Source: Heterodontus francisci (Eukaryota). Taken from it: a stretch of 64,000 bases of DNA. The position numbers and the translations under genes were made by a program. The notes under the pieces are model-generated. The model had not been told where the DNA came from and made no database searches. It saw only the letters and a program-made list of their open reading frames with translations. The stretch lies in contig NC_090376.1 in NCBI RefSeq assembly GCF_036365525.1, positions 148,064,966 to 148,128,965 on the forward strand. Direction: 5' to 3'. Shown piece after piece: positions 4,252 to 64,000 of the stretch. How positions within the stretch are numbered: the first letter of the stretch is position 1; every line of letters starts with the position of its first letter.

Positions 4252-4262
4252 AGTCCTTCCTG

Positions 4263-10143: not shown

Positions 10144-10234
10144 GAAAAACTGTACTACAAAGTCCAGCATTCATAACAACAGTTAATAATATCAGCTGAC
10201 AAAATGCAAAATAGGAATCCTTTTCCCAGAGATA

Positions 10235-12950: not shown

Positions 12951-14869
12951 TGAGAAAATATAAAATAAGCAGAGAGGGAATGTAAATGTTCAAAGTGTGA
13001 GAAACTAATTATTATAAAATACTATGGAAAGGAAGATGTGAAACCTGTAATCTGTAATCTGAAACCTGTAAGGGCATTTCAAATAGCAAATAAAAATTTT
13101 AAAATTTGTTTCAGAAGTAACAACCCGAATTTTACTTGGGGTGAGGGGTGGGCATTAATTTCTATGTGAGGTCCAAACCACCTTTCCTGCCCTTTTTTTG
13201 CACCTACTCCACTTTGATTTCCTTACTGAAGCCAGTATCAGGAACCGACACAAAGTTAAATCACTGTCGGATTCTGGTTGATGCCAATGGTAAAATCTCA
13301 ATGAACCCCTGGTTTGTCTGGGACGAGACTCTTGCATGCTGCCTGAAACTCACTACTAACATTGTGCAGAGTGCATGTATGGATCCGCTGAGAGTCACAC
13401 CACCGATATTCTAACCTCTGCATACTCTGGCCCTGAAAATAGGACAGATTTTGCTGTGAATGGCGAAGCTGTTCGTTACATTTGCACTTGACAATAGGAA
13501 TTCATAGGTGAGTTCCTCAGGTGATGGGCATGGGGGAAGCAATAGGCGAGCATGAAGGATGATCACACGTTCCAAGTTACAGACATTTGGCCGAGCTGCA
13601 GCCAACTCTGTGTGCTTCTGTCTGGAGTGTCACATGGGTTTGGTGGTTCTGTTTTCTCCTGCAGGTGAATCACAATAATGGCCAGGCGACATCTCCAGGG
13701 AACAGCCAGAAAGAAAGGTTCCTCAGAGGGTGCAGCAACAGATCCTTGTCCTGCACCATCCACTGGATCAGATACTGTTGCCTTGATAGGCCAATGCGTG
13801 AGTAGAGATTCGAGGTTACAATCTAGTACGGGCACCGCACAAGTGCCAGACCAGATGTCAAGGCTGTGACAGCTGAGGTCTCTGGCATTCAGAGGAGTGT
13901 AAGAGACCAGGCCCATGCTGAGCCCCGAGCTGATAACGAGACTCTGGAGTCACCCATGAGGCATGCAGATGCTGAACATGCAGCATGTGTTGTGTGGAGA
14001 TCTGGCAGAGATTAAAGAGGGCATGTGGCCCTGTCTCAGACAGTGCAGAAGTCCATGCAGGCCATGAGCGCTGCCTTTTCCCTCTCGTCAGCGCACATGG
14101 TCTTCTCCATCGAGAGATTGGCGACTCGCCTGGAGAGCCACATCCAGAATGCCAGTCAGTGCATGCTGGAGATGAATGCAGATCTGCATGCCATCACCTT
14201 GTCGCTAAGCATGAGGGATCAGTGGCAAGGCGAGAGGGGGATGGGATACCTGGAGTCTCCGCCAGGTTCTCGTCCTTCTCAGGTCAGCAGGGAGGTACAA
14301 GTATGCCTCGCGATGGTGGTGGAGCAACAGCAGTCTGCATCTGGGAGCTCCATTCAGGGTACTCTTGGTGCGGCCAGTGGATCCTCAGCTTCTCTGCCAG
14401 TAACACCAGCACCTCAAGTTGCCAGGATGACAGAGGAGGCTTCTGCGACTCTTCAGTATGCTGGGGCCCTTTCGGCCTCAGGCCGAAGACGGCCACCAAG
14501 ATCATCCCAAGCCATGGGGCATCTTAGTCAGCAGTCTGCCTCTCCGCAGCTGGTAGTGAATGGGGTAAAACAGAAGGGAGCACTTGAAAAATATTTAAGA
14601 AATCACAGTAACTGCATTTGGGCTTCATGGGTGTGAGTTCAATTTATGTGGCTTTTTAAATCGTGTAGTGAACCTTTATGAAATGGCTCTTTGCTTATGA
14701 GTGTCTCAATGCAGCAATGGTGGCCACAGCGTTCTGCATGTGTGGGAGGTAGCAACTCGGAGCTGGATGGGGATGACCATGGTATATGTGCTAATCAGAT
14801 GGACCATCGCCGAAGTGTTATGCACTGATGAGTGAGTCATTCTGGGCTTCCAGCAGATGTTAGTGGCTG

Positions 14870-16510
14870 CAGTGAGTCTGGAATGTGGATCTTTGGTAGA
14901 CAAGATGGCTGATGTGCTGCAGTTCAGGGGAAATGCCTGAGTATAAGAGCTTCCTGAACCTCCTTAGCACCCAACTCTTGAGACCGACCAAGTGGTCCCA
15001 TAGGCTGGTCAGGATGCTGCGGCTCCTCTTCGGCAACCTTAACTGAGGATGCCTCACACGCTACTGTGTCTTCAGCACACAGGGCCTCCCACCTCTCCAG
15101 AACCAGGTTATGCAAAGCGCAACAGACAACCACAATTCAAGATACACTTGCTGGTGGATACTGAAGGGCTCCACCCGAGCAGTCCAGGCACCTAAATCTC
15201 ATCTTGAGCAGGCTGATGCACGGCGTGGTGGGGGGTGGAGGGGGTGGTTGGCAGTGAAAAGCTGTGGCACCCAGGAGTGCCAGAGAATGTAAGCATTGTG
15301 ACTACTCCCTGGATAATAAACACACACCTGTAATATCCACTGGCGGTGGTCACAGACGAGTTGGACGTTGAGAGAGTGAAATCTCTTCCGATTGATGAAG
15401 GCCCCTGGTTGGTCTGTGGGAGTTCTGATGGCCACATGCATGCAGTCAATGACATCTTGGACTGGCGACATCGTGCCAAAGCCTCTGGCTGTCTCGTCCT
15501 GAATGTCTGCATTGGTTGTAGGCTCGATGGGCTGGATTTTAAAGGGTCTCCGATGCAGGAAAGGGTGGCGGGGGATATGAAGATTGCAAAGGATGATGCC
15601 CGCCACTGACCCTGATGTCAGCAGGCCCTGTCCTGATCTCAACAGAGGCGGAGAGGCCTCATGGTGCCCCCGCCCCAGCCCCACACTGCTACCCCCCCCA
15701 ACACCCCTGCCCCCCGCTCAGTGACAGGACCACGATTTCCATATTGAAATAAACTAACCTACCTGAATTAATGAAGGTCCATCGCCATCTTATTGGTCGC
15801 ACCAATCTTCATTCGGGTGGGCGGCAATGCTGCGCCTTCGAATCCCCTTTCGGGGAAACGAGGCGTGACACATGTGGGGAGTGGGGAGGAGATGATTTTC
15901 TCAGTATGGGAGGTGGGGGGAGCCAGGTCAAATGCTTCGGATTGGTTGGGGGTGTGATGGGAAGGGGTAAAGGGCAAAGGTTCTGAACTTTGCGGCGGGG
16001 GGGTTGTGGAGGGAAGCTCCTATATGCATGGTTGGTATTCTGGCGGGGGAAAGGTCACAATGATGTTTAATGTCATTTGGGGGGAGGGGTGGGAGAGGGC
16101 ATGGAAAGACTTTTCAATTAATTTTTATTAACTGTACAATAACTTGCACTTTAAAAATTGCAGTTGTCATTTAGGTCTCGGAGCCCTTTAAAAATGATGT
16201 TGGAGCCTGTGCATTGGACGCCGTTGCCGGTGCTGGCTCGCCCACCCCCTCCATGTCATCGGGTGGGGATGGGGGGTGGCCACCCTGGCCATGCTAATGA
16301 GCCTACCTGTTTGGAATTGCGGTAGCTCTGCGACATGGGCCCCGTGAGTGCGGGCCACCATATTTTTCGCCCGCCGCTTATTTCAATGGCGGGCTTTTAA
16401 AATGCAGCCCAATGTATTGGATGGCCCTCCTAAAGAGGGCATTGGTCACAGCCTTCATGCAGTGAATTGAAGCTGATTGGGAGATGCTGCACGTGTCCAG
16501 TGGCAGCCTG
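14870..16510 (-). pseudogene. HARBI1-like DDE transposase, interrupted by a MITE
   Basis: ISQSASIHCMKAVTNALFRRAIQYI (16412-16490), then after the MITE VIDCMHVAI, INRKRFHSLNVQLVCD, YPGSSHNAYIL, VVCCALHNL. Confidence 0.85.
15529..16410. mobile_element. Harbinger-type MITE (family 1), 882 bp
   Basis: TIRs GGGCTGGATTTT / AAAATGCAGCCC; 3-bp flanks GAT/AAT; internally similar to 24640-25479. Confidence 0.85.
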
Positions 16511-16672
16511 GCACGCGCAGAGGTCGGCAACCAGTCCGTACACAGACTCAGTCCATGGTAAAAGATTTTGTGGGCCATGACTGGTAATTTCAGGGAAGAG
16601 ACACTTCCCATTGACTTCTTCTTTCTCACCAGACCGACTATTAAAAAAAAAATCGCACTGTCAGTTTCACAG

Positions 16673-16822
16673 CTGACAAATGCTGAGAGCAGGAACGGTG
16701 CTTCCGAACTTTGGACAGCTTCAGGTTTTCCGACAGGTTACGATTTTTTTTAAAGCCCGTTGGAAAACCCCGAATCTGTCTGAAATTCAGAAACTACTGT
16801 TCCTGCTCTCAGCAACTGTCAG
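16673..16822. repeat. 150-bp imperfect palindrome
   Basis: CTGACAAATGCTGAGAGCAGGAAC...GTTCCTGCTCTCAGCAACTGTCAG; arms pair nearly to the central T-run. Confidence 0.85.
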
Positions 16823-17643: not shown

Positions 17644-17800
17644 NNNNNNNNNNNNNNNNNNNNNNNNNNNNNNNNNNNNNNNNNNNNNNNNNNNNNNNNN
17701 NNNNNNNNNNNNNNNNNNNNNNNNNNNNNNNNNNNNNNNNNNNNNNNNNNNNNNNNNNNNNNNNNNNNNNNNNNNNNNNNNNNNNNNNNNNNNNNNNNNN
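17644..17800. other. Assembly gap (157 N)
   Basis: Run of n. Confidence 1.
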
Positions 17801-33144: not shown

Positions 33145-33504
33145 GGGCTGAATTTAATGAGCCCACTGCCGGGTCCGATGGTGGGCCTGGAAAAGAGCGC
33201 CATTATCACCCATCATGTGGGCGGCTGCCCCACCACAATTACACAGTAGATGGCCATGTTACATAGGGGAGGTGCAGGTCCCTCCCCAGTCACATGTCAG
33301 AGGTGGGAGACGAATCATTGATTACTGCCTCAGATGTCTCCGGACCAGGTGCTGGTGCCATATTTAAAGGCCTGCCAGCCCTGCATTCACTGCTGCTTTG
33401 AATGTATTTTCAACTTTGTGCTGCCTACAGCTCTGTCAGACTGGTTTCTGTACCCCTCCCACCACCACCACCCCCCCCCCCACCCACAAAGAGGGCAGAT
33501 GACA

Positions 33505-35090
33505 ATGGCTGAGACAAGACACACAGTGGCCCCATGGTTCAGTGATGCCTCCCTGCAGATCCTCATCCAAGCTGCAAGGAAAAGGCTGGAGGTTCTCTTC
33601 CCCCGTGATGGCACAAAGAGGTCCTCCTGCCTGACCAAGCAAGCCTGGGTGGAGATCGCAGAGAGGTCAGCAGCCATGGGATCACCCGACGCAACTGAGT
33701 TCAGTGCAGGAAGAGGGTCAATGACCTCCTGCGTTCTGCCAAGGGAAGTGCTCCACACCAATCGCCTTTCTGAGCATTACATGTACATACGCGGGAGGTT
33801 GCACGACATGGGGAGGATAGGAGCGCTGCAGCATTGGCTGAGTGGCTGGGGTTTTAACTCTTCCTGACAGATGCATGGCTTCCTCTCGGCCACAAGCCAC
33901 CGTCCTTCGTAGCTCACCCACCTTAAATCCCCAGACAGCGAGTGTCGGCATGAGAGACATTGGATTCCCCCAACAGGTGATGAGGAGCTGACATGAGCAG
34001 AACTGTCATGTTGATCTCTCTGCCATTCTCTACTATCTCCATCCTTACCCTTTACTACAAGAGGGCCCATAATAGGAGGGAGACAACCTAGACTGGAGGA
34101 GGAATCCCAGATCTATGTCCATTTACGTCTGCCGAGGAAGAGACTTTGGAGCTGGCGGGCACCCAGGGCAGTTACACAATATCAAATGAGGAGACTGGAG
34201 TCCCTGTGCAAGAGCATGAGGAATGAGTCCCATCGGCATGTGCATTAATGTTGGAAACTCACATTACACATGGTTGGCGTCAGGAGAGCTGCACAGCCGA
34301 GCTCACATATGTTTGTATTCTCTCATGTAGGTAGCCATTCACAAGGGTCTGCAGCCACAGTAGGACATTCATCGACCTCTAAGAAGGAGAACCACTCAGA
34401 GAATGCATTGTGCCATGACTCTCTTGCACCCCCCTCAGTGTAGATACTTTCACCATGGCGGGTACCTGCTCAGCTTTAGAACCAGGGTCACAAGATGATG
34501 AATGCACCACACACGCATGAGAGCTGCTGGCCGAGGCTGAGATAGCTGAGACCTCCGACATTCGGAGGACTGTGAGTGGCCAGGCCCATGTTGAGCCCCA
34601 GGATGATGTTGAGCCTGTGTTGTTGACAGTACAAGACATGCTAGAGTTACAGAGAGATGCCAGAGGTCATGTGCTGTCATGAGCAGACAATGGAGGACTC
34701 CATCCATGCCATGATTGTTGTCTTGTCTCAGGCATATGAGCGCATGGCTTCCTCCATCGAGAGGTCGGTGAACCTCATGGAGAGCCAGATTCCACAGATG
34801 CCTGCAGACCTACACACCGTTGCCTTGGCCATGAGCTCAATGCAGCAGTGGCAAGACAAGAGAATGAACAGGAGCCTGGAGACTTCTGCAGCTCCTCGTC
34901 CTTCTCTGGTGAGCAGGAAGGCTAAAAAGGGCCTTCAAAGGGAGGAGAAGCTGCCATCCATATCTGGAGGCTCCCCTCAGGGCACTGTGTGTGTGGACAT
35001 CGGCTTCTCAGTCCCGCAGAAAGTGAGCCCAGCTCCAGCAGCCGTGATGTCTGATGAGAGTCCTGGACATCCCCAGGCAGCCGGGCCTTC
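33505..35090 (+). pseudogene. Harbinger Myb/SANT-like DNA-binding protein gene, intron-containing, decayed
   Basis: APWFSDASLQILIQAARKRLEVLFPRDG...KQAWVEIAE..QCRKRVNDLLRSA; later RTGGG..EEETLEL exon; acceptor-like TGTAG at 34330. Confidence 0.75.
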
Positions 35091-35092
35091 CA

Positions 35093-35823
35093 GGGGAGAC
35101 GGTGGCATAGTGGTAATGTCACTGAACTAGTAATCCAGAGGCCCAGCTTAATGGCCTGGGGAGATGGGCTCAAATTCCAGCACAGCAGCTGGTGGAATTT
35201 AAATGTAATTAATTAATAAATTCAATTAATTAATAAAAATCTGGAATAAAAAGCTAGTTTCAGTAATGGTGCCATGAAACTATCATTGATTGTCAAAGTG
35301 GTGCAGTGGTTAGCACCGCAGCCTCACAGATCCAGCGACCTGGGTTCAGTTATGGATACTGCCTGTGCAGATTTTGCAAGTTCTCCCTGTGACCGTGTGG
35401 GTTTCTGCCGGGTTCTCCGATTTCCTCCCACAGCCAAAGACTTGCAGGTTGATCGATAAATTGCCCATTGTAATTTGCCCCTAGTGTAGGTAGGTGGTCG
35501 GGAATATGGGATTAAAGTAGGATTAGTATCAATGGGTGGTTGTTGGTCGGCACAGACTCAGTGGGCCGAAGAACCTGTTTCAGTGCTGTATCTCTAAATA
35601 AATAAAAACCCATCTGCTTGACTAATGTCGTTTAAGGGAAAAAAAATATGCTATCCTTACCTGGTCTGGCCTACATGTGATTTTAGACCCATAGCAATGT
35701 GGTTGATTCTTAGCTGCCCTCTAAAATGGCTTAGCAAGCTGCTTAGCTATCAAGGGCAATCAGTGTTGGGCAACAAATGCTGGCCTTGGCAGTGATGCCT
35801 ACATCCCATGAAAGAATAAAAAA
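35093..35823 (+). mobile_element. tRNA-derived SINE with family-B LINE tail, split by an HE1-like SINE
   Basis: A-box GGTGGCATAGTGG, B-box-like GGGCTCAAATTCC; tail AAATGCTGGCC...ACATCCCATGAAAGAATAAAAAA. Confidence 0.7.
35297..35607 (+). mobile_element. HE1-like V-SINE
   Basis: TGGTGCAGTGGTTAGCAC (A box), GGGTTCAGTT (B box), V-domain-like TTCTCCCTGTGACCGTGTGGGTTTC, CR1-like tail GGGCCGAAG...TGCTGTATCTCTAAATAAATAAA. Confidence 0.85.
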
Positions 35824-49620: not shown

Positions 49621-50457
49621 GACCGTCTAGCACTTGCAGCATGGCAGGTTCTGTGTCACTGCTTGCAATGATGAGGTGCTAGATAAGAAGCTGAAGAGGT
49701 CCAGCTTCTCGTGCCTTACCCAAGGAAGCAGAAACAAGAAAATGTTAAGAGAAAGTTCTCAGAGCTACATACTGGACAGCTGCCTTTGCAAAGAGGAAGG
49801 CATGGTACAGCTGATGTCTGGCAGATTGGATGTCAGCACTTGTGGAAATATGTAGAAAAAAGAATGAAACACAAAACAGTTCAGTGCTGGGCCATTGCCT
49901 CCTGATACACCATCGTTTGCTTTGATCTTCTGCATTCTCTAAAAACTCAATCTTTGCATTTACAGAGCACACTCTGTGTATCGAGTCACTTCCATGATTG
50001 TTGCTGTGTACCCCACTCCACTCAATAGTGGACGTCCACTGTTTGCTGTTGACAAAACAAGAGGAGAGGATAATAAAGGTCAGTATTTCTCTCCTGGCCT
50101 CTGCTCACCTCATATGTGCAGGTGCACTCCCTAGGGTCAGTGATGACAGAAAGATGCAGCATGCAGGTGGAAGTCAGTGAAATAGTTGATTCTGATTGTC
50201 CTGGTTTGATTTCCATGTGTTGGAGGAAAACAAAACAGCCAATTTCACACTGGAGCTTTTTGGACAGGTGTGGAAAGGTGCAGAAAAAGGGAATTAATAC
50301 ATGGGTAAGAAGTTTAAGATGGTACTATCATCAATAGATGCACAACAAAAATGAGAGGGCATTTTATTTCCATATATCTCTACTACTTTGCCTAAATGAA
50401 GCTTTCCCTATTCTTTGGCACTGTCCCCAAGCCACAGAACTGCTATTATTACCTTCT

Positions 50458-50830
50458 TTTAAAAAAAGTGCATCCTCATCCTCTCAAAACATTTTAAAAA
50501 GAAGGTGGGTCCTGCTGGTAAGGCCCATCCCAAATTGCCTTTGAGAAGGTGGTGGTAAGCCACCTTCTTAAATACAACTAGGCCATTACAGAGTGCAGTT
50601 GAGTCAACCACATTTCTGTGGGTCTGGAGACATTTATAGGCCAGCAGATTTCCTTCCCAAAAAGACATTAGTGAAGCAGATGAGTTTTTATGACAATCTA
50701 GTAGTTTCATGGTCACCATTCCTGGTACTAGTTTTTTTCTTGCAAATCTGTACCTCCAGATCATTAGCCCAGGTGTACAATAACGTATCAATAATGTGTC
50801 AATAACATAACCACCATGCTAGCATTGCCT
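50458..50830 (-). mobile_element. Decayed SINE with family-B tail
   Basis: Reverse-complement similarity to 35250-35290 and 35610-35823. Confidence 0.6.
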
Positions 50831-51309
50831 ATAACCTGTACTTATTCTCTAAGTTCCTTCACCACATATTGTTACCCAATGATGCATCCACTTCTCATTG
50901 CAGTTCCTCTTTGAATCTGTCCAAACTGATTTTTCACCTTCTAGAACATCGTGACCACCCTGATTACAGTCACCAATGACGTGACTACAAAGAGCTTATT
51001 GTCCGCCCTTGTCCTCCGTCACCTCTTCACACCCTTTGGCATTGCCTCTCTTCCATGGTCCACCCTCCTAGATTAATTCCTACCTGTCAATGTATCCACT
51101 ACATATTGGCAAACAGTTTCGACCTGCATTCCTATGTGGTCAGTTGTGGTGTATCCAAACTTTTATTCTTGGTGTCTTCTAATTTAACATCTACACACTG
51201 TCCCTCAAGGATAGTCTACACAATGACAACCAACACTACCTCTCCACCATCATCATTGAATCCAAGGCAATTTCTGAAGAGTCCAATTGTTTGTTTAATA
51301 TCAAAACAA

Positions 51310-51830
51310 CAACAAAAACTTGCATTTATATAGCAACTTCAGCATAACAAAAAGTCCCCAGGCACTTCATGGGAGCATTATAAAATAAAATATGACTCTG
51401 AGGCACATAAGGAGCTATTATGACAGATGACTAAAAGCTTAGTCAAAGAGGTTGGTTTTAAACAGTGTCTTAAAGGAGGAAAGTGGGATAGCGAGGTGGA
51501 GAAGTTTAGGGAGGAATTCCAGAGCATAGTGCCCAGGCAGCTGAAGGCACGGCCTGCAATGGTGGAGCAATTAAAATCAAGGATGCTCAAGGGAGCCGAA
51601 TTAGAGGACTGCAGATATTTCAGAGAGTTGTGGGGATGGAGGAGATTACAGAGATCGGGACAGGTGAGGCTATGGAAGGATTTGATAACAAGGATGAGAA
51701 TTTTAAATTGAGGTCTTGTTTAACTGGGAGCCAGTGTAGATCAGCAAGGATAAGGATGATGGGTGAACATGATTTGGTGCAAGTTGGGCAACAGAGTTTA
51801 GGATGACCTCAAGTTTACAGAATTTACGGT
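51310..51830 (-). mobile_element. L2 LINE 3' fragment
   Basis: STIAGRAFSCLGTMLWNS...LKPTSL (ORF 51378..51590); 3' end GCTATATAAATGCAAGTT(TTG)n. Confidence 0.75.
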
Positions 51831-52995
51831 GCTTGAATAAGTTGGAATTTTGTTCAGTTCAATATTGACAGAGCCATCCTTTTCAATCCTGGGAAGTACC
51901 TCCAGGCCTCTGGTTCCAGTTCCATGAAGTTCTATGTTGTAATTTCAAGCAGGTGTAATGTAACCCTAACATTCTTCTGGAACCTAACTTTCACACTCTG
52001 CATTTGGTTAGTCATCAAGACAATATTGTTCCACCATTTTTTTTATATTGATTTGCTATTTATGCTTCTCTCTCCTTTGTAAACATGCTCTCAGATGCAC
52101 CGATACGTGAAGAGTACTATATAAATGCAAATTGATATTGTTTAGTGTTGTAATGATGCAGCTGAGTCTCAATTTATAACTCCTCTACTTTGTTTATATA
52201 CATTCTTTGTTATTATGATATTTTGCTAACTTTCCTGAAGACCTGTTTTTTACTCGCTAAATTTCATTTTGAAACATTCTATATAGCAGAAATATGAATA
52301 ATTGTGAGATTTGATTTGAGGATTGCAGGCGTCTTCCAGAAATGACTTCATAGTTTGATAATACTATTCAAAGCAGTGTTTAGCATTTTTATTACACTGC
52401 GAGACTGGATATTTTTCAGCTATGTTCATATATTATAACAGGTTATGTGTTACGTTTAACATTCTAGCACAGGTACTTTCAAAGTTATAATATTCAAAGC
52501 CAAGTCATGGACATATTTCTTCTTCAGAAATCTACTACTTATTATAGTTTGGGACAAGTCTTTTTGCTGTTGACTGATCTCTACAAAATGTTTTAAATAA
52601 TGGTTGTGACTGACAATAACAATACAAAAGGGAAGTACTGTCAGAAGTCAGAAGAGTACAGGCAACAGGGCAAATGCAAGAAGACACTGTGGAAGAAACC
52701 GATGTGGCTCATCAAACAATTGCTGAGCCACTTAAATCAAATTCATTCTCAGCAGGTTTAGAGCTGAATCTAGTCAGTGGTGACATCATGCCTGGTGACA
52801 TCAAACACTTTGAACTAGCAAGGAATTTTTGGGATCTTGGCAATTATTTGTCACGAGTGTAACTTCAGCCACAATTATATTACACAATCACTCAGAAGCT
52901 GTTAGCTATGGAGGACAACTGGAACGTTCAGGGTTATGCTGTAGGCTCCAGCTCATACTCTGCAGAGTTTTTGCAGAGCTCTAATGCGAGGTTAG

Positions 52996-55900
52996 TTCTT
53001 CTTCTTCTTCAGCCTCCTTGTCTCGGGAGATAATGAGTAAGCGCCTGCAGGTGGTCAGTGGTTTGTGGAGCAGCGCCTGGAGTGGCTAAAAAGGCGAATA
53101 CTATAGTGACAGACTCTTCCACAGGTGCTGCAGATAAAATTGGTTGTCAGGGCTGTTTCGCAGTTGGCTCTCCCCTTGCGCTTCTGTCTTTTTTCCTGCC
53201 AACTGCTAAGTCTCTTCGACTCGCCACACTTTAGCCCCGCCTTTATGGCTGCCCGCTAGCTCTGGCGATCGCTGGCAACTGACTCCCACGACTTATGATC
53301 AATGTCACAGGACTTCACGTTGCGTTTGCAAACGTCTTTAAAGCGGAGACATGGACGGCCAGTGGGTTTGATACCAGTGGCGAGCTCACTGTACAATGTG
53401 TCCTTGGGGATCCTGCCATTTCCATGGGCTCACATGGCCAAGCCATCTCAAGCGCCGCTGACTCAGTAGGGTGTATAAGCTGGGGATGTTGGCCGCCTCG
53501 AGGACTTCTGTGTTGGCGATACGGTCCTGCCACCTGATGCCAAAGATTCTCCAGAGGCAGCGAAGATGGAATGAATTGAGACGTCGCTCTTGGCTGACAT
53601 ACGTTGTCCAGGCCTCGCTGCCGTAGAGCAAGGTACTGAGGTCACAGGCTTGATACACGCGGACTTTTGTGTTCCGTATCAGTGCGCCATTTTCCCACAC
53701 TCTCTTGCCAAGTCTGGACATAGCAGTGGAAGCCTTTCCCATGCCCTTGTTTATTTCTGCATCGAGAGACAGGTTACTGTGATAGTTGAGCCTAGGTAGG
53801 TGAACTCTTGAACCACTTCCAGAGCGTGGTTGCCAATATTGATGGATGGAGCATTACTGACATCCTATCCCATGATGTTTGTTTTCTTGAGGCTGATGGT
53901 TAGGCCATATTCATTGCAGGCAGCCGCAAACCTGTCGATGAGATTCTGCAGCCACTCTTCAGTGTGAGATGTTAATGCAGCATCGTCAGCAAAGAGGAGT
54001 TCCCTGATGAGGACTTTCCGTACTTTCGTCTTCGCTCTTAGATGGGCAAGGTTGAACAACCTGCCACCTGATCTTGCGTGGAGGAAAATTCCTTCTTCTG
54101 AAGACTTGAACGCATGTGAGAGCAGCAGGGAGAAGAAAATCCCAAAAAGTGTGGGTGCGAGAACACAGCCCTGTTTCACGCCACTCAGGATAGGAAAGGG
54201 GTCTGATGCGGTGCCGCTATGCTGAAGTGTGCCTTTCATATTGTCATGGAATGAGGTGATGATACTTAATAGCTTTGGTGGACATCCGATCTTTTCTCGT
54301 AGTCTGAAGAGACCGCGTCTGCTGAAAAGGTCAAAGGCTTTGGTGAGATCAATGAAAGCAACGTAGAGGGGCATCTGTTGTTCACGGCATTTCTCCTGTA
54401 GCTGACGAAGGGAGAACATGTCAATGGTCGATCTCCCTGCTCGAAAGCCACACTGTGCCTCAAGGTAGACACCCTCGGCCAGCTTCTGGAGCCTGTTTAA
54501 AGAGACTCGACCGAAGACTTTCCCCACTATGCTGAGCAGGGACATTCCACGGTAGCTGTTGCAGTCACTGCGGTCACCTTTGTTCTTATAGAGGGTGATG
54601 ATATTGGCATCGCGCATGTCCTGTGGTACTGCTCCCTCATCCCAGCACAGGCAAAGTCGTTCGTAGAGTGCTGAGAGTATAGCAGGCTTAGCAGTCTTAA
54701 TTATTTCAGGGGTAATGCCGTCCTTCCCAGGGGCTTTTCCGCTGGCTAGAGAATCAACGGCATTACTGAGTTCCGATTTTGTTGGCTGTACGTCCAGCTC
54801 AACCATGACTGGCAGAGACTGGGCTGCATTGAGGGCGGTCTCAGCGACAACATTCTCCCTGGAGTACAGTTCTAGGTAGTGCTCAACCCAGCGGTCCATT
54901 TGCTTGCGTTGGTCAGTGATTGTGTCCCCTGATTTAGATTTGAAGGGGGCGATCTTCTTGATGGTTGGCCCAAAAGCTCTCTTAATGCCATCATACATTC
55001 CTCTGATGTTTCCGGTGTCTGAGGCCAGCTGAATATGACTGCATAGGTGTTGCCAGTAGTCATTTGCGCAGCGCCTGGCTGTTCTTTGTGAAGCGCTTCT
55101 AGCTGATTTAAGTGCTACGGATGTTAACTCGCTGGGGGCTTTCTTGCAGTTCAACAGTGCAATGCGCTTAGCGACTATGACAGGTTCCAGCTCTTCAGAG
55201 TGAGATTGAAACCAGTCTGCATTCCGCTTCACGCGTTTGCCATAGGTGGTCATAGCTGACTCATAGATGGCGTCTCTGATGTGGGCCCACTTGCTCTCTG
55301 CATCCCCTGTGGGAGTGTTTTGAAGGGCTTTTTCAAGGGAATTAAAAATTTTTTGTAACAACTGTGGATAAGAAATTCTGCTGGTGTTGATGCGCGGGTG
55401 GCCCTTCTGCTTGGAGTGATGCAGCTTCTTTGGTTTGAGGCTAACCTTGCTGCACACCAGGGAGTGTCAGTGTCGCAGTCCGCACTGTGGAAGCTGCGTG
55501 TGGTTTGAACGCTGTCTAAAGAGGCTCGCCTTGTGACGATGAGGTCCAGCTGGTGCCAACGACGTGATCTTGGGTGCCTCCAAGAAACATGGTGACAGGG
55601 TTTATTGTGAAAGAACGAGTTGGTGATGCAGAGGTTATGATAGGTACACAACTCAAGCAGTCTCTGTCCATTCTCATTCATCCTTCCAATGCCATAGCGC
55701 CCAAGGCAGGAGGGCCATGAGTCATGGTCGGTCCCAACCCTGGCATTAAAGTCCCCCAGCAGGAACAGATGTTCGGTATTGGGGATGCTACTAATGATAT
55801 TCTGGAGTTCCTCGTAGAACTGGTCTTTAGCTTCAGGTGAGGAGCAGAGTGTTGGAGCATAGATGCTGAGTAGGTTTACTGGACCAGAGGTGGTGAGCAG

Positions 55901-56740
55901 TCGGACAGTATGCGTTCTGAGCCATTTGAAGGTGGCTCTATCATGCTGAGCAAGGAGTTTCTGATGGCGAAGCCCACTCCATGCTGTCTTGGTTCTTCAG
56001 GATCCCTACCCTGCCAGAAGAAGGTGTAGTCTTGCTCTCGCAGGGAGGTGTGTCTCCTGAAGTGCTGCAATGTCCACATTGAGTCTGCTGAGCTCGTTGT
56101 GAATGATGGCGGTCTTCCGAGAATCGTTGATTTGTGTAAGGTCTTCCGACAGGCCAGGACACATAGTTCTGACGTTCCAGCTTGCAAAACGAAGGGCTGG
56201 TATCTTCTTTCCTTTTTTTATCGTGCTGTTTGGTGCGGTGTTGCAGTCCACTTTTCAGGCTCCAAGCACCCATTGAAGCAGGTGGACTGTGGCGGGACAG
56301 AACCTTATTGACCGGGGCTGCCCGGTTTGAGGCGGGCGGTAGCTGTCCAGTGAGGTGCGATGACCTCTCCCACCGACAAAGGCAACCCGTGGCGCCCAAT
56401 CTCTATGCCAATTGAGCTGGACTTATAACCTGTAACTGCTGCCTTCCGTGTTGTTTTGGTTGCTGTGAGGCGCCTATGGAGTGACCTCTCCATGGCGCAT
56501 GCCTGGGCGAATGTATGGGGGTTGTGAATTGCCCAAGCATCAAAACCCCCCTCTCGGCCTTTCTGGTGGCGTCCAAAGGAGTGCAGAGAACGACGTTTGG
56601 CACTGGTATGGCTGCAGGAACTGCTGGAAACATGCCAAAGGTGACACATGACCAACTACGGGGTTCCGCTCCGGATTTTCTGTTAGGGTTTACTCCCTTA
56701 GCCTTGGACTCTCCCAAGATGCCCACAAGGCAGTGGGGTT
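52996..56740 (-). mobile_element. Near full-length RTE-clade LINE
   Basis: About 480-nt 5'UTR, EN, RT, (GAA)5 tail at 52996-53010; possible 5-bp TSD GTTAG (52991-52995, 56741-56745). Confidence 0.92.
53030..56251 (-). pseudogene. RTE EN-RT polyprotein with frameshifts
   Basis: ALRFASWNVRTM, DIAALQET, HQLDLI..DCDTD, KAPGKDGI, FIDLTKAFD, GVKQGCVLAP, LFADDAAL, LLYGSEAW; longest piece 53865..55457 (530 aa). Confidence 0.9.
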
Positions 56741-56764
56741 GTTAGGGCCCTTGCTCAGGGATAG

Positions 56765-56915
56765 GTGGATGTTGGTGGGAGGAGGGGGTGCGAGGGGGAG
56801 GGATAGAGGGAAGGGGGTGCGAGGGGGAGCTGGGAAGGAGGCTGCAGGGTGGTAGGGAGGAGTGCAGGGGAAGGGGGTGCGGGGGGAAGATGGTGCGAGG
56901 GGGGAGCAGATGGGA
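56765..56915 (+). repeat. G-rich degenerate repeat (AGGGGGTGCGAGGGGGAG-like, about 4 units)
   Basis: Visible directly in the sequence. Confidence 0.7.
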
Positions 56916-57318
56916 GCAGACGGCCATGGATAGAGTTGCACAGCAAGGGAGCTTCCCAGGGAGCTTGCAGCCCAGGAGCCATCTTGGAAGGTCATCCTAA
57001 CTACAAGTTAACAGCTAGTTTAATGTTACCTGGGCCCACTGCCCTCTCCCAGCCTTACCTGCTCTTTGCTTCCTTCATTGAGCACTGAATTTTGCTGAAA
57101 TTGACATCCAGTTTTCTGGACACCTAGGCTACACTTCTCTACCGGACAGAATTATAGCTGGTGATACTCTGATCTTCTATTCTGTTGTCTTCATTGTCCA
57201 GAGCGTCCGCGGCCACGGCCACGGCGTGCAGTAAGTCCAGTGCAGAGAGGCAGAGAGGAAGGAGCAGCAGAACCCTAGGGTAATAAGACCAAGTACAGAG
57301 GGGAAGCATTGAGAAAAA

Positions 57319-57519
57319 GGTGCCCCCAAACACGTAAAAAGTCACGACCCGGCCCCTGTTGACTCCATCGCGGAACGGCTCCTCGGCCACAACTTCAAAG
57401 CGCCCGCGGGAGATGTGCGGCTCGTAGTGCATCTGCAGCGCAATGTCAGCGAATTCCTGCTGATACTGGCGCCCGAGGCTGTCGCCCACCTCCCAGAGGA
57501 CGCGGATGAGCTGTGACTC
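57319..57519 (-). pseudogene. BCL2: BCL2-like gene fragment (BH3 through BH1), 67 codons
   Basis: LIRVLWEVGDSLGRQYQQEFADIALQMHYEPHISRGRFEVVAEEPFRDGVNRGRVVTFYVFGG aligns without gaps to recalled human BCL2 [63 protein letters not shown]; no BH4, BH2 or native TM; TAG immediately upstream. BCL2 versus a close paralog is not certain. Confidence 0.85.
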
Positions 57520-57524
57520 CTAGC

Positions 57525-57612
57525 TGCAAAGATTTTATGAAGATATGAAACAGGTTGCAAAGCAGACCCCTGTGGGACTCCATTGGTAACAATCTCCCAG
57601 GCTGATAACAAT
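57525..57612 (-). mobile_element. Old CR1 RT remnant flanking the BCL2-like insert
   Basis: SAWEIVTNGVPQGSALQP then (frameshift) LFHIFIKSL, matching CR1 [21 protein letters not shown]. Confidence 0.65.
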
Positions 57613-57644
57613 TGATGTGTGGCAGTGGTTTTGTGCCTTTGTCA

Positions 57645-57962
57645 TTTATTTATTTAGAGATACAGCACTTAAACAGGCCTTTCGGCCCACCGAGTCTGTG
57701 CCGACCAAGAACCACCCATTTATACTAACCCGACAGTAATCCCATATTCCCTAACACCTACCTGCACTCGGGGCAATTTACAATGGCCAATTTACCTATC
57801 ACCTGCAAGTCTTTGGCGGTGGAAGGAAACCGGAGCACCCGGCAAAAACCCACACAGTCACAGGGAGAAATTGCAAACTCCGCACAGGCAGTACCCAGAA
57901 TTGAACCTGGGTCTCTGAAGTTGTGAGGCTGCGGTGCTAACCACTGCGCCACTGTGCCACCC
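57645..57962 (-). mobile_element. HE1-like V-SINE, full length
   Basis: Reverse complement of 35297-35607; GGGTGGCACAGTGGCGCAGTGGTTAGC head, (TAAA)n tail. Confidence 0.88.
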
Positions 57963-58889
57963 TATTTATCTTTATGAGGAATCCTGTTAAACACAGCAGC
58001 AACCGACACACCAGGCACAAAGAGATCTTCTGGGATGGTGGGAACTGACGAAATGTTTTATTACCTGCACCCTCTTCCCCCACTCCCTCCCCCCCTCGCA
58101 ACCCCTTCCCAGCCAGGTTAGTTTATAACTATATATGTGTTTATATGTGAGCAGGAGATGTAACAGATCACCTTAAAGCATGTTCAACCTACATTGGACT
58201 GGATACAAGCCCAAGCGGTGTGAGATGATTTTGTAGAGGAGTCTCATGCTACTTGGTTTATAATCAAACTTGGATAATAATCAATTCACTGAGTAACTCA
58301 GTATGAATAATTTGACTCCATGAATGACAATGCATGACATGTGCACATTCTCCTTTAATACAATAAATTCCAAAGTGAATAGAAGCCTGATTACTCTTTT
58401 CACACACTGTCCTTCCCCTTGGTGATTAAACATGATCTTTTCCAGTGCTTATTTTAGATGAAGCCTAAGAGCCAGAATCATAAGAGGTGCTACAAAAGGC
58501 TTGTCGACTGATGAACTTCCTCTTCTAGTTGGTTGCTCCCGGGAAGCAGTGGCTGCTTACAATATATGTGGAGCTTCTGCCTGTGCAGTGTGGTGTTGTC
58601 TCGTTTTCTCATACATGACACTGGTATGGTGCTTTTGGGCGGATAGGCCAGATGCCTAATGTGCAGCTGTGACTGTTCCCTGGACCTGTGTGGTCACTGA
58701 TCAATGGGATCGCTGGTCTAATAGCAGATAGCAGATCCTAAAGTCCCTGAGAGATGGTGGACTGCATTGGAGCTGCTATGACCTAAAGTGGATGCACAGG
58801 AAGCTGTCCAAGCTCTTTCCTACCACTACAAAAACTGCAATCTGTTCTTATATGGGTGTGGAAGCACTGACTCATCTCTGGCAGTTTCT

Positions 58890-60094
58890 GTGGCGGTCAC
58901 CCGAGCCATTTTCTGCTTCATCTGGGGATCTAAAATGGACCGGGTCCGGAGAGACACGATGTTCAAATCTCTGGATAAGGGCGGGAAAAATGTACCCAAC
59001 GTGGCCCTCATCCTGATGACCACCTTCGTGTGCGGCTGCATCAAGCTGTGTGTAGACCTCCAGTATGCAAACTCCAAGTGTCACTACGTGCTGAGGTTCT
59101 ATCTGTCCCCGGCATTGCTCAGGATGGGCCTGGTCACATTGCCGCGGAACGCTCCATGCAGTTGGACTGTGCCATACCACCTATCCTTCGTGGAGCAGTT
59201 TCTGTGGGAAAACACCTTTGACCACCGCTCCATCAGGCAGTGGTCTGCACGGAATGTCCTCAAGGCCCTACGGGAAAAGGAGACAGGGGATCCTGTCGGA
59301 TGGTTCCCCGAGCAGAACATCAAAGTCATTTGGCGGAATGCCTCATCACCAGAACTTTCAAACAAGCTTGGCTGGTGGTGAGAAGGGCCCTCCCCGTCAG
59401 ATCCTTCATGCACGCCCGAAGTCTTGCCCCCTCTGCACAATGCCCCCGCAGTGGCTGTGGTGGGGAAGAGACGGTTGCCCACCTCCTCCTGGAATGTGTC
59501 TTTGCAAAGCAGGTGTGGAAAGAGGTGCAGTGGTTTTTGTCGAGGTTCATCCCAAGCAGCTCTGTAACACAGGGGTCTGTGTTCTATGGGCTGTTCCCAG
59601 GGACGCACACCGAGACAAACATTAACTGCTGCTGGAGGACTATCAATTCGGTGAAAGACACCCTTTGGTCTGCCCAAAACTTGCTGGCCTTCCAGCGCAA
59701 AGAGTTGTCCACGACCGAATGTTGCAGACTGACACATTCCAAGGTCCAGGACTACGTGCTGAGGGACGCACTAAAGCTTGGGGCAGCCGCAGAAAAGGCT
59801 CAATGGGGAAAGACCACAGTGTAAGGTCCCCCCACCAAGCTGAACTGAGGGGCTGGATCCATGGGAAACCCCTCGAACTGTATCGGAGAAATTTTGTGTG
59901 CTGTAAATGTAAAAATGTATATGGCATGACAATGAAATGACAATGAGTTGTGAGGCAACTCATGATTGTATAGTAGGAAACTGATCACCTTTGCACTGTT
60001 TGTATTTTTTGACTTGATGCTGTTTTAAACTGTTTGGGAAAGTAATTTTTACAGATTTTTATGAATGAAGTATATTTTGGAAATAAAAAATAAT
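58890..60094 (+). mobile_element. Tx1/L1-clade LINE copy 4 (3' 1.2 kb)
   Basis: Matches copy 1 from 5879 to the tail; deletion/frameshift near 59367; 15-bp TSD TCTCTGGCAGTTTCT (58875-58889, 60095-60109). Confidence 0.93.
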
Positions 60095-60169
60095 TCTCTG
60101 GCAGTTTCTTAGTTTGGGGGTTCAGCAGATTCCAATAAAATTAACTCTGCAAGGCGCTGACCCTGGGAG

Positions 60170-60900
60170 ACATTCATAGCCTATAACATATGGTTTTCAA
60201 AAATTTTTGTCTAAAATACTACAAATAAGGTTGCATTGTGTGAGATTGATGGGCAGATCTTAAGTTGGTTAGAGAATTGGTAGCATTCGCAAAGCCAGAG
60301 AGTAGTTAGTAATGGTAACAATTCTGATGAGAACTGTTTACTAGTGGAGTCCCAGAGTGGTTAGTGTTAAGATTATTGCTGTTCAGCTTCTTTATTAATG
60401 AAAGCATCAGGAGATCAAACCATAAGTTTGCAGATGACAAGAAGGTAAGTGTGGGAGTTGAGACCTCAAATTTTAAGAAACAGTTTGCAGTGATGAGGGA
60501 ATGAACCCAAGTCTCCCAGATGTCTTTTAATATAGACAAGTACAGTGTGATACATTTGAGCAGAGGCAATTCCAAGCTTGTGCACATCATGCAAGATTGT
60601 ATGCTCAAGTCTGCTGAGTGGGAGAAGGGCATGCGAGTTGTAAGTCACGAATTATTGAAGCTTGAAAGCTGTTTCAAAACCAGACAGAATTTTAAGATCC
60701 ATAACAGGGCAACAAAATATAGATTTTGAAATACCGCCCATACTTATACAATGCCTTGGTCTGGCAGTATCTAGAATACTGTATCCAGTTTTACTCCCCT
60801 CACATGGTGGGCAACATTGGTGTCCTGGAAAAAAAATCACACGGGAACCACAATTAATAAATAGTTTAACTGCCCTTAGCAATAGGCTGAATGGTCTATC
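60170..60900 (+). mobile_element. Very old CR1 RT fragment
   Basis: TSGVPEWLV, KFADDKK, MSFNIDKYSVIHL. Confidence 0.6.
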
Positions 60901-60929
60901 TAGCCTTGTCCTTTTTTGTATACTTATTT

Positions 60930-62183
60930 GGTTTTTTTTATTCATTCACGGGAAGTGGGCGTTGCTGGCCAGGCCAGCATTTATTTCCCATCCTTAATTG
61001 CCCTTGAGAAGGTGGTGGAGAGCTGCCTTCTTGAACCACTGCAACCCATGTGAGGTAGGTACACCCACAGTGCTGTTAGGAAGGGAGTTCCAGGATTTTG
61101 ACCCAGCGACAGTGAAGGAACGGCGATATAGTTCCAAGTCAGGATGGTGTGTGACTTGGAGGGGAACTTGCAGATGGTGGTGTTCCCATGTATTTGCTGC
61201 CCTTGTCCTTCTAGTTGGTAGAGGTCGCGGGTTTGGAAGGTGCTGTCTAAGGAGCCTTGATGCATTGCTGCAGTGCACCTTATAGATGGTACACACTGCT
61301 GCCACTGTGCGTCAGTGGTGGAGGGAGTGAATGTTTGTAGATGGGGTGCCAATCAAGCGGGCTGCTTTGTTCTGGATGGTGTTGAGCTTCTTGAGTGTTG
61401 TTGGAGCTGCACCCATCCAGGCAAGTGGAGAGTATTCCATCACACTCCTGACTTGTGCCTTGTAGATTGTGGACAGGCTTTGGGGATTCAGGAGGTGAGT
61501 TACTTGCCTCAGGTTTCCTAGCCTCTGACCTGCTCTTGTAGCCACAGTATTTATATGGCTACTCCAGTTCAGTTTTCGGTCAATGGTAGCCCCCAGGATG
61601 TTGATAGTGGGGTATTCAGCGATGGTAATGCCGTTGAATGTCAAGGGGAGATGGTTAGATTCTCTCTTGTTGGAGATGGTCATTGCCTGGCACTTGTGTG
61701 GCGCGAATGTTACTTGCCACTTATCAGCCCAAGCCTGGATATTGTCCAGGTCTTGCTGCATTTCTACACAGACTGCTTCAGTATCTGAGAAGGTGCTGAA
61801 TGGTGCTGAACATTGTGCAATCATCAGCAAACATCCCCACTTCTGACCTTATGATTGAAGGAAGGTAATTGATGAAGCAGCTGAAGATGGTTGGGCCTTG
61901 GACACTACCCTGAGGTATTCCTGCAGTGATGTCCTGGAGCTCAGATGATTGACCTCCAACAACCACAACCATCTTCCTTTGCGCTAGGTATGACTCTAAC
62001 CATCAGAGAGTTTTCCCCATCATTCCCATTGACTTCAGTTTTGCTAGGGCTCCTTGATGCCATACTCGGTCAAATGCTGCCTTGATGTCAAGGGCAGTCA
62101 CTCTCACCTCACCTCTTGAGTTCAGCTCTTTTGTCCATGTTTGAACCAAGGCTGTAATGAGGTCAGGAGCTGAGTGGCCCTGG
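60930..62183 (-). mobile_element. CR1/L2-clade LINE family B, relatively well-preserved 3' portion
   Basis: AGIPQGSVQGPTIFSCFIN, MFADD, IYKAQVRSVMEYSPLAW, WNSLP; A-rich tail. Confidence 0.88.
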
Positions 62184-63694
62184 CTTTAAGGTTTTGCATG
62201 CAAGCAATTAGTTAGGGAAAGTAACAACCCATATTTAAATATCCAATTAAGTGCTCTCTTAACTGAAGGGTTAGCTGTGTTTGCTCTTAATCTTACAGCA
62301 TGAGGAGTATGCTGTTACCCAGGCTATTCAAAGTAGTAAAGCAAAAACAGCTGTTGTGTTATCTTGCCTGATCTCATCAGGTCATGAGATTCTTGCAAGA
62401 CTGGTCTGCAGTTCTGGGATGAGAATTGACATTCAATTCCAATGCCATCTCTCTCCTCATGTCATGAGAGACATTTTTTTCAGGTTTTTTCCCCAGCAGT
62501 CTGGCTCTCCTTTGTTCTCTATTTTGTAGGTGGTTTTCAGAGGTCAGCCTCACTGAAATTCTATGCTCTTCTTTTATTTCTCCTTACATTGCCCTTGCCT
62601 CTTTTTATGATTGCCTGCGCCAGATGCTCCAATGGAAGACATCATTGAAAAGTGAGTCTTCCATTACAGAATGAACAGACTGAGCTAAGCATTTTCCTCC
62701 TGATCTATTGCTCTCTCAGATTGATGGTGAAAACTTCAGCCAACCTTGGCTTTTTCAAAGGCCATTTCTCAGCACCTCTCGCATAGTGCTCCCATTTTAC
62801 ATGGGATTTCACTGGAGAACTTCCAATGGATATTTAAATAAGCTGATCCCACAAAGTTTGGCAGATTCAGTTCTGCAGATCATCGCCAGACAAATGTCCT
62901 GGCACATAGGCGCAAACCTGGAGCAACTCACCTTGTGAAATTTCGGGGTCACTTTTAGTTTCCTTTGTTTCAGTAGAGCTAGCCTCAAGACTATGTGAGA
63001 CGCGACTGCCATGACATTTTTATCGTTCCTATGGTAAGCTAATGATCTCAGTATAGCTGAGACTAGGGTAGATTTCATCTTGTAAATAATTCTCATGAAA
63101 TCATAAAATCCGCAAGTTTACGATTTCACTATAAATAGAGCAAAGGAAAGCTTCTCATTATGATTGCAATGTCCCAGACATACAGCGACAGGAGGAAATC
63201 ATTCCACATGCTCTAACCCTAACCAAATTCAACTTCTGGTGCCATTTAAATCGGGGGAGCTGCAGAACCAAAAACATCTGAAGGTTGGGAGTGGAGGAGA
63301 GGTGGTGGGGTGAGGCAATACCAGGAGTAATCCTGCTTTTCCTGGATGCCCAAAAATAAAAATTAAGAATCTCTTCAGCCTTCTTTTAAGGCCCACTGGT
63401 CAAGCCACTTGACACCTGGTACAACTGCGTGCAGGGCACAATTTCTTCCCATTTGTACCTGAACTTTGCAAAAAATGTCCTTGTGCCTGATGCATTTATC
63501 CGGCTTGCTTGCCCATTTATGGGCATGGCTGAATACTTCATCAGGCAGGCCTTAATGCATCAATGGGGCATCCAGGATGCCCCTCTGATTTTCAAGTGCT
63601 GGTAACCTATCTTTTAGGCACACAACAGAGAACCATGAGTTGAATTTCTCCCCTAGTCTATCACAAGATGAAATTAAGGAACACTTAAAAAAGC

Positions 63695-63840
63695 GGAACT
63701 CCAGAATCTGTGCCTATAATCTAAGCTGACACGTCAGTGAGGTACTGAAGGAATACAACACAGCTGAAAGTGCTGTCTTGCAGATGAGATGTTAAACCAT
63801 GGTCCCATCTACTCTGAATGTGAAAGAGTCAATGGCATGA
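63695..63840 (+). mobile_element. DeuSINE core fragment
   Basis: GTACTGAAGGAATAC...CAGATGAGATGTTAAACC, as at 27230-27300. Confidence 0.65.
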
Positions 63841-64000
63841 ATATTTTTTATCATCTAAATAGTTGTCTTTGGTATTTCCTTAATCATTTTCCTTAAAGCT
63901 AGGAATAAACTACTGGAACAAATACAAATGTAAGAACAAATTAAATATGAGAACAAATGCTTGCGCTCTCTACTTTATCATTCATATCTCAGAACTTTTC

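What the first reader, a model, noticed from the sequence alone, without database searches (positions are those of the whole stretch)
57319..57519. Orphan BCL2 BH3-BH1 fragment in a transposon field
Seen: 67 gap-free, CpG-rich codons matching the anti-apoptotic BCL2 core, with no BH4, BH2 or native TM nearby; homology stops abruptly after FGGT with no splice donor. Two near-invariant BH1 residues are altered by single changes (ELF to EPF, CCG; NWGR to NRGR, AGG). Known: NWGR lines the BH3-binding groove. Inference: a captured piece of a BCL2-family gene, fairly recent or unmethylated given the retained CpGs.
Basis: partly seen in the sequence, partly recalled or inferred. Interest (0 to 1): 0.75.

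Follow-up and report, generated by a model that had tools for sequence, protein, structure and literature searches.

The report
Shark repeat carrying dead BCL2 fragment
A 62-codon piece of the cell-survival gene BCL2 sits inside a DNA repeat that recurs in many variant copies in the sequencing data of two organisms, so it is likely a dead gene scrap that a shark jumping element captured long ago and then copied, probably hundreds of times or more.

Summary
The match is real but it is not an orphan. On the minus strand, 57319-57504 encodes 62 residues, 49 of them identical to shark BCL2 (Pfam Bcl-2, E 1.4e-9). No BH4, BH2 or TM lies anywhere in the window.

Laying public contigs on 56930-57644 stacked 967 and 959 variant contigs from two DNA runs of one organism and 30 from a second organism. 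Contigs bridge both junctions. So the piece is cargo of a multi-copy repeat (roughly 150-300 copies by flank depth, possibly thousands) and not an assembly chimera.

It is dead as protein. All 13 changes are residues absent from 13 cartilaginous-fish orthologues. NRGR is nearly private to this copy (about 99% of depth has W). At least four other changes and an upstream +1 frameshift are shared across the family, and one subfamily has deleted the NWGR stretch. It is not recent: about 9-10% nonsynonymous divergence from the parent, with CpG decay under way.

The carrier's class is unresolved; my best guess is a LINE-mobilised non-autonomous retroposon. This is a new member of a known kind (bat HelibatN3, human SVA_F1); I found no report of it in sharks.

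The parts
57319..57504 (-). BCL2-derived fragment, 62 in-frame codons (BH3 to just past BH1), 13 residue changes against shark BCL2
57505..57512 (-). Continuation of the BCL2 homology (Ala-His codons) in another frame, behind a one-base insertion that other copies share
   Evidence: context; table 8 records 7 and 8 reach 57512 with 0 gaps
56996..57318 (.). Left part of the multi-copy carrier; no Pfam match; includes a second CpG-rich stretch near 57190-57260
   Evidence: tables 2, 7, 8
57513..57636 (.). Segment present in only some copies; lower depth (250-920); its junction with the BCL2 piece is bridged in organism B
   Evidence: table 2 and record 32
57645..57959 (-). SINE-like repeat inserted later; 87% identical copy at 35291-35606 (the SINE label is recalled)
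58023..58113 (.). Right part of the carrier: other copies join 57512 directly to about here (18 of 19 match at 58034-58052); the true right end is unknown
   Evidence: table 7
56757..56986 (-). G-rich stretch ending in a high-depth free end at 56986; either the inverted 5' end of the carrier or the 5' end of the neighbouring LINE; 56776-56820 is an inverted 76-81% match to 58067-58111
   Evidence: tables 2, 5, 7
52996..56756 (-). Neighbouring near-full-length LINE (endonuclease and RT, broken into several frames, GAA tail); the RTE clade name is recalled; probably inserted into or beside the carrier
58890..60094 (+). Later LINE 3' piece with a 15-bp target-site duplication (58875-58889 and 60095-60109), 91-92% identical to three other copies in the window

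Best explanation
The fragment is a piece of cartilaginous-fish BCL2 that sits inside a repeat present in many variant copies in two organisms; it was likely captured once, long ago, by a non-autonomous mobile element, likely lost all protein function, and was likely spread as a passenger, my best guess being by LINE-driven retrotransposition. Steps. (1) SHOWN: the source is BCL2, between the BH3 approach and FGGT. (2) INFERRED: capture was a template switch inside one coding exon, not splicing; no donor follows FGGT, and orthologue isoforms diverge only after NGDW. (3) SHOWN: the FGGT junction is shared by many copies in both organisms, which points to one capture followed by amplification. 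(4) SHOWN in part: the master copy had already changed invariant residues (W9, I36, S37, V43) and carried a frameshift; later variants show no sign of protein constraint. (5) INFERRED: later insertions (SINE, two LINEs) broke up this copy. (6) INFERRED, weak (about 0.4): the carrier is a retroposon whose 5' end is the free end at 56986, inverted in this copy, which would put the BCL2 piece antisense in its RNA, where the CpG-rich DNA may be neutral or may help as an internal promoter.
For: MULTI-COPY. 967 (X2), 959 (X3), 31 (X5) and 30 (X6, organism B) contigs laid on 715 bases; in X2, 76 are 99+% alike, 339 are 95-99%, 396 are 90-95% and 156 are under 90%. Summed depth is 1324-2849 over 57170-57361 and 3865-56211 over the BCL2 core in X2, against a median of 9.4 for the 8 listed long contigs. 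JUNCTIONS. 57318/9 is bridged by X2 records 1-3, X3 records 10-11 and X6 records 28-29; 57512/3 by X6 record 32 (2 differences in 100). NO CONSTRAINT. 13 of 13 changed residues occur in 0 of 13 orthologue rows, and 11 of the 13 columns are invariant; orthologues differ from each other by 0-9 (mean 4.2) of 62. Of 11 listed variants within the fragment 8 are nonsynonymous, which fits neutrality (p 0.72) and not dN/dS 0.1 (p 0.001). A subfamily (9 contigs in X2, 14 in X3) lacks about 27 bases covering NWGR (table 7, aligned by eye). FAMILY-WIDE CHANGES. All 7 (X2) and 6 (X3) A>G places at 5% or more are accounted for elsewhere and neither run lists A>C, so the parent bases for W9, V43 and S37 are under 5%; the parent base for I36 is at 4-7.5%. 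RETROPOSON HINT. Free end with unrelated flanks at 56986 (18 and 16 contigs, agreement 0.41-0.42); opposite-strand joints linking that end to 56995 or 57023 in three runs; listed contigs that run on unaligned to the left of 57221, 57253 and 57295. LINEs are 34.2% of the catshark genome (PMC11979771, passages).
Against: The tool warns that summed contig depth is not a copy number, and a filter drops records, so the counts are rough; organism B gives only 2-47 times its contig median. No listed contig spans the whole stretch. X2, X3 and X5 are one sample. Only 40 of 80 variant rows, 12 of 21 indel rows, 24 of 263 loose ends and 32 of 2003 pieces were shown, so the 8:3 test rests on a tool-chosen subset, and the family status of EPF (57377) and five other changes is unknown. 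No empty site, tail, TSD or terminus of the carrier was shown; a 10-nt TSD candidate was no better than chance (204 of 2000 random 10-mers). The 56986 end may simply be the neighbouring LINE's own 5' end. Dispersal over chromosomes is not shown. Parent DNA was not obtained, so there is no true dN/dS.
Confidence: 0.75

Rival explanations
1. Same dead cargo, but the carrier is a DNA element: a Helitron-type or Pack-TIR-type non-autonomous transposon that picked up BCL2 DNA by template switching or gap filling. This differs from the best explanation only in step 6.
For: Patchwork anatomy, with segments present in only some copies. Inverted 45-nt arms at 76% flank the unit. Harbinger-type transposase remnants lie in the window (DDE_Tnp_4, E 1e-10). 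Bat Helitrons preferentially amplify 5' gene parts (PMC4224331, passages).
Against: No hairpin-CTRRT end between 52000 and 61000; 0 of the 8 window-wide hits fall there. No terminal inverted repeats between the far flanks. The arms are low-complexity. Multicopy vertebrate Pack-TIRs were rare in PMC8277862 (four cases; the example shown has three copies; passages).
Confidence: 0.3
2. The copies come from tandem or segmental duplication (macrosatellite, subtelomeric block) of a region that holds a one-off BCL2 fragment; no transposition of the unit is involved.
For: Contig depth cannot tell dispersed from clustered copies; no terminus or TSD was shown.
Against: No second copy in the 64-kb window. 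Copies differ by up to about 20% and fall into indel-defined subfamilies. A 1583-nt contig matches only over its last 123 bases (record 5), which suggests unrelated flanks.
Confidence: 0.13
3. The carrier keeps or kept the piece for a function as a short BH3-containing peptide or as an exon of a new gene, like the Bcl-2 cargo of Polintons or planarian Burro elements.
For: The frame stays open for 126 codons; an acceptor-like TTTGCAG lies just upstream; the highest depth falls in the BCL2 core.
Against: A stop follows that acceptor in frame; no Met before residue 30; family-wide changes at invariant residues; shared frameshift; NWGR-deleted subfamily; neutral variant spectrum. No predicted protein of this form among 36-118 aa proteins (1 hit of 10 candidates, a mammal-type BCL2 piece, a word-limited search).
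Confidence: 0.05
4. Assembly chimera or contamination.
For: The window has an N gap at 17644-17800, and no listed contig spans the whole stretch.
Against: Both junctions are bridged by independent contigs, including from a second organism.
Confidence: 0.01

Closest known systems
Cartilaginous-fish BCL2 (for example the Heterodontus francisci and Stegostoma tigrinum proteins P0092 and P0093, names)
   Same: 49 of 62 residues identical over BH3-BH1; shares RGRFE with the shark rows rather than the ray rows.
   Different: No BH4, BH2, TM or start; 13 changes seen in no orthologue; frameshift; multi-copy.
Bat HelibatN3 and other Helitron gene captures (PMC4224331, passages read)
   Same: A 5' piece of a host gene amplified inside a non-autonomous element; HelibatN3 took the NUBPL promoter and first exon to about a thousand copies.
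   Different: No Helitron ends found here; the cargo is an internal coding piece of an apoptosis gene; different lineage.
Human SVA_F1 carrying MAST2 exon 1 (PMC12593883, passages read)
   Same: Single capture of host exon sequence by a non-autonomous element, then spread as a subfamily (at least 84 reference copies).
   Different: SVA_F1 arose by splicing at an exon end; here neither break is at a splice site, and the piece is older and internal.
Animal Pack-TIRs (PMC8277862, passages read)
   Same: Similar cargo size (median 224 bp); multicopy cases favour GC-rich cargo.
   Different: Mostly single-copy; TIRs and TSD not shown here; the word 'shark' does not occur in that paper's text.
Bcl-2 homologues of adintoviruses/Polintons (PMC8502044, one passage) and planarian Burro LTR elements (PMC6431247, passages)
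   Same: A Bcl-2 sequence travelling in a mobile element.
   Different: Those are coding accessory domains in autonomous elements; this is a decayed piece of the host's own gene, with no polymerase, RT or integrase match in its flanks.

Membership tests
BCL2-derived sequence (PF00452) | Pfam Bcl-2 score above the curated cut-off | tested here: met
   38.8 bits against 31.4
BCL2-derived sequence (PF00452) | Closest relatives are BCL2 orthologues | tested here: met
   best of 67 hits is skate BCL2 at 75%, next 52%; sharks 79%
Functional anti-apoptotic BCL2 protein | BH4, BH2 and C-terminal TM present | tested here: not met
   (output partly cut)
Functional anti-apoptotic BCL2 protein | Intact BH1 NWGR | tested here: not met
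   NRGR in this copy; W in about 99% of family depth; stretch deleted in one subfamily
Functional anti-apoptotic BCL2 protein | Purifying selection | tested here: not met
   13 of 13 changes unseen in orthologues; 8 of 11 listed variants nonsynonymous; no parent DNA, so no formal dN/dS
Processed pseudogene | Exon-exon junction | not testable with these tools
   The piece ends before NGDW, where orthologue isoforms diverge, so it probably lies within one exon
Processed pseudogene | BCL2 3' end with poly(A) and TSD | tested here: not met
   homology stops at FGGT; no A run of 7 or more near it
Interspersed repeat carrying host cargo | Many diverged copies sharing the cargo junction | tested here: met
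   tables 1, 2, 8
Interspersed repeat carrying host cargo | Dispersed loci and empty sites | not testable with these tools
   no genome held
LINE-dependent non-autonomous retroposon | 3' tail and variable TSD | tested here: inconclusive
   right end unknown; TSD candidate at chance level
LINE-dependent non-autonomous retroposon | Variable 5' truncation | tested here: inconclusive
   three listed contigs leave the match on the left at different places (table 8); indels could do the same
Helitron | 3' hairpin followed by CTRR | tested here: not met
   0 of 8 window hits in 52000-61000; a decayed end could be missed
Pack-TIR | Terminal inverted repeats with fixed TSD | tested here: inconclusive
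   only low-complexity 45-nt arms; nothing between the far flanks
Polinton/adintovirus or LTR element with Bcl-2 cargo | Element genes (PolB, integrase, RT) linked to an intact Bcl-2 ORF | tested here: not met
   64 of 65 flanking frames of 40 aa or more have no Pfam hit above cut-off; the one that does is the fragment

The most novel reading that the evidence does not exclude
A shark retroposon family with thousands of copies carries an antisense, roughly 90%-identical piece of the BCL2 coding exon, so that its transcripts or piRNAs cross-target the real BCL2 gene, or the CpG-rich piece serves as the element's promoter. This would be a vertebrate case of the capture-driven epigenetic conflict described in maize, acting on a master apoptosis switch.
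Probability: 0.12. Interest if true: 0.8.

Novelty: new member of a known kind. Interest (0 to 1): 0.5.

Why it matters
High-copy amplification of a captured coding fragment is well documented in plants but, among vertebrates, mainly in bat Helitrons and hominid SVA; a survey of 100 animal genomes found only four multicopy vertebrate Pack-TIRs. A shark repeat family built around a BCL2 exon piece would extend this to cartilaginous fish. Its indel-defined subfamilies could serve as phylogenetic markers. It is also a practical trap: BCL2 copy-number, primer, probe or RNA-seq counts in these sharks could be inflated by dead copies, which bears on claims about shark longevity and cancer genes. If the copies make antisense small RNAs, cross-talk with BCL2 becomes directly testable.

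Tried and rejected
GENOME. No whole genome is held, so no parent locus, copy map or empty site could be examined.

OTHER COPIES. Protein search for longer relatives of the fragment: 0 of 10 candidates, a weak negative. Search at near length: 1 of 10, a mammal-type BCL2 piece. Viral contigs: 0 of 90 pattern stretches confirmed and 0 matches for two DNA patterns. Metagenome contigs: 0 of 242 confirmed; one DNA match, L001, is chance, 23 of 25 bases only.

EXPRESSION. No RNA holder listed. X5 is only guessed to be RNA and is not used as evidence of transcription.

CARRIER FEATURES. Rfam 0 hits in 50000-64000; no tRNA in the window; right flank folds no better than shuffles (z 0.05). A TSD enclosing the LINE plus the unit (52986-52995 against 58112) was rejected as chance. 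The ESM Atlas gave only Bcl-2 clusters at 0.91, with recognition below its threshold.

DATING. I dropped dating by mutation rate: the published 7e-10 is per generation (PMC10587355, abstract and passages) and gives implausible ages for a CpG-rich repeat.

CORRECTION.

EARLIER FINDINGS. Four look-ups found nothing similar.

Full report
OBSERVATION. The minus strand of 57319-57519 gives 67 stop-free residues that match Pfam Bcl-2 above its cut-off (E 1.4e-9) and BCL2 structures best (E 8e-17). A search of 1.84 billion representatives returned 67 hits; the best was skate BCL2 at 75% and the next 52%. Using that protein I collected cartilaginous-fish BCL2 orthologues. Against them the in-frame match is 57319-57504: 62 codons, 49 identical to Heterodontus and Stegostoma BCL2. 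The five residues before RVL are off-frame; the DNA reads Ala-His codons, one extra C, then RVL, and the orthologues read KAHRVL. No other part of BCL2 was seen in the window (the middle of that output was cut). No donor follows FGGT, and orthologue isoforms diverge only after NGDW, so neither break looks like an exon end. The stretch has 19 CpG, more than any of 1269 sliding windows. That the host is a shark is inferred from these relatives.

NOT AN ORPHAN. No genome was available, so I laid 4 of 16 listed public runs on 56930-57644 at 80% likeness. Two DNA runs of organism A (one sample) gave 967 and 959 contigs, spread from over 99% to under 90% alike. A run of organism B gave 30, and a run only guessed to be RNA gave 31. 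All 30 bins are covered in all four runs. In X2, summed depth is 1324-2849 over 57170-57361 and 3865-56211 over the BCL2 core, against a median of 9.4 for the listed long contigs. That is roughly 140-300-fold on the flank and up to about 6000-fold at the peak. The tool warns that this is not a copy number, and organism B gives only 2-47-fold, so I read it as 'probably hundreds, possibly thousands' in A. The FGGT junction is bridged by at least seven listed contigs from both organisms, and the upstream junction by one contig of B with 2 differences in 100. This removes the chimera worry and points to a single capture.

The unit has variants. Ten X2 contigs leave at 57512 and continue with sequence matching 58034-58052 at 18 of 19 bases, so some copies lack 57513 to about 58022. 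In those copies the BCL2 likeness runs a few codons further (AGKAH against AEKAH, read by eye table 7). Nine X2 and 14 X3 contigs lack about 27 bases covering NWGR. The window holds no second copy.

DEAD AS PROTEIN. The 13 changed residues are each one base from the orthologue residue and occur in 0 of 13 orthologue rows. Eleven of those columns are invariant, while the orthologues differ among themselves by a mean of 4.2 of 62. Three changes are mostly private to this copy: the family majority restores W in NWGR (99%), A60 (95-98%) and R31 (63-75%). Four are family-wide: I36 directly, and W9, S37 and V43 by exhaustion of the tool's change counts. The other six, including EPF, cannot be called because 40 of 80 rows were hidden. 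The extra C is shared by gap-free contigs. Of 11 listed variants in the fragment, 8 are nonsynonymous: p 0.72 under neutrality and 0.001 under dN/dS 0.1 (a tool-chosen subset).

Divergence from the parent is about 9-10% at nonsynonymous sites. This copy differs from the family majority at 19 or more of about 510 bases, 7 of them CpG transitions. The capture is therefore old and CpG loss is under way. Slow shark evolution (7e-10 per generation, PMC10587355, abstract and passages) plausibly explains the CpGs that remain; I give no date.

SURROUNDINGS AND CARRIER. To the left lies a near-full LINE (52996 to about 56756; RT E 4e-29). To the right lie a SINE-like repeat (57645-57959) and a LINE 3' piece with a 15-bp TSD. 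Of 65 flanking frames, only the fragment has a Pfam hit above cut-off; Rfam and tRNA scans are blank. The carrier's class is not established. For a retroposon: a free end with unrelated flanks at 56986 beside a CAAGATGG motif (its YY1/LINE-start meaning is recalled), opposite-strand joints tying that end to the unit in three runs (as a 5' inversion would), and contigs leaving the match at different left positions. Against: those joints fall at the edge of the laid stretch, the end may belong to the neighbouring LINE, and no tail or TSD was found. No Helitron end or clear TIR was found either. My odds: retroposon about 0.4, DNA element about 0.3, tandem or segmental about 0.13, the rest unassigned. 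Confidence in the core reading (dead BCL2 cargo in an amplified mobile repeat) is about 0.75.

COMPARISON. It works like bat HelibatN3 (NUBPL 5' piece to about a thousand copies; PMC4224331, passages) and human SVA_F1 (MAST2 exon 1, at least 84 copies; PMC12593883, passages), but it is shown to be a member of neither. Multicopy vertebrate Pack-TIRs were four cases among 370 (PMC8277862, passages). Bcl-2 cargo is known in adintoviruses (PMC8502044, one passage) and planarian Burro elements (PMC6431247, passages), but as coding parts of autonomous elements. Three paper searches (shark with Bcl-2/bcl2 plus pseudogene, transposable element or copies) listed nothing on a BCL2-bearing shark repeat. 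In the Greenland shark preprint the 12 passages shown did not concern it; its supplements were not seen. The one 'bcl2' in the dogfish paper is a software name. Repeat databases could not be searched, so the family may already exist there as an unclassified entry.

NOVEL CASE. Copies about 90% identical to the parent exon could yield small RNAs that cross-target BCL2, as proposed for maize captures (bioRxiv 10.1101/777037, start of the abstract in a search listing). Nothing here tests this; probability about 0.12.

VERDICT. New member of a known kind; interest 0.5.

Noticed in passing
window 57190-57260: A second CpG-rich stretch inside the same repeat (6 CpG in 57201-57300, with a CGGCCA tandem); no Pfam match; it might be a second captured piece.
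   Followed up: partly
window 56930-57068: Opposite-strand joints in X2, X3 and X5 link the G-rich stretch to the carrier's left part; depth peaks at 56954, 57026 and 57386 are of similar height (46,000-77,000 in X2 and X3), hinting at one very abundant family.
   Followed up: partly
window 52977-52992: The sequence just left of the LINE tail resembles the loose end that precedes 56996 in other copies (12 of 15 bases by eye), so the LINE may have inserted into the carrier. Similar matches also occur by chance elsewhere in the window.
   Followed up: partly
window about 62932-63128, minus strand: Exon-like stretch with good acceptor and donor by eye and a 102-aa open frame; only a weak DHR-2 hit (E 0.023) and no PDB match. 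It may be a host exon or pseudo-exon.
   Followed up: partly
window 4232-12199 and 58890-60094: Four 91-92% identical copies of one LINE 3' region (RT plus zf-RVT; one 864-aa open frame), three of them clustered, one inverted.
   Followed up: no
window 13563-16737 and 33322-35130: Harbinger-type remnants: DDE_Tnp_4 (E 1e-10) and a weak Myb/SANT-like frame (E 0.0025).
   Followed up: no
window 1333-1731: Integrase zinc-binding domain piece of an LTR element (E 7e-11).
   Followed up: no
window 17644-17800: Assembly gap of 157 N inside low-complexity sequence.
   Followed up: no
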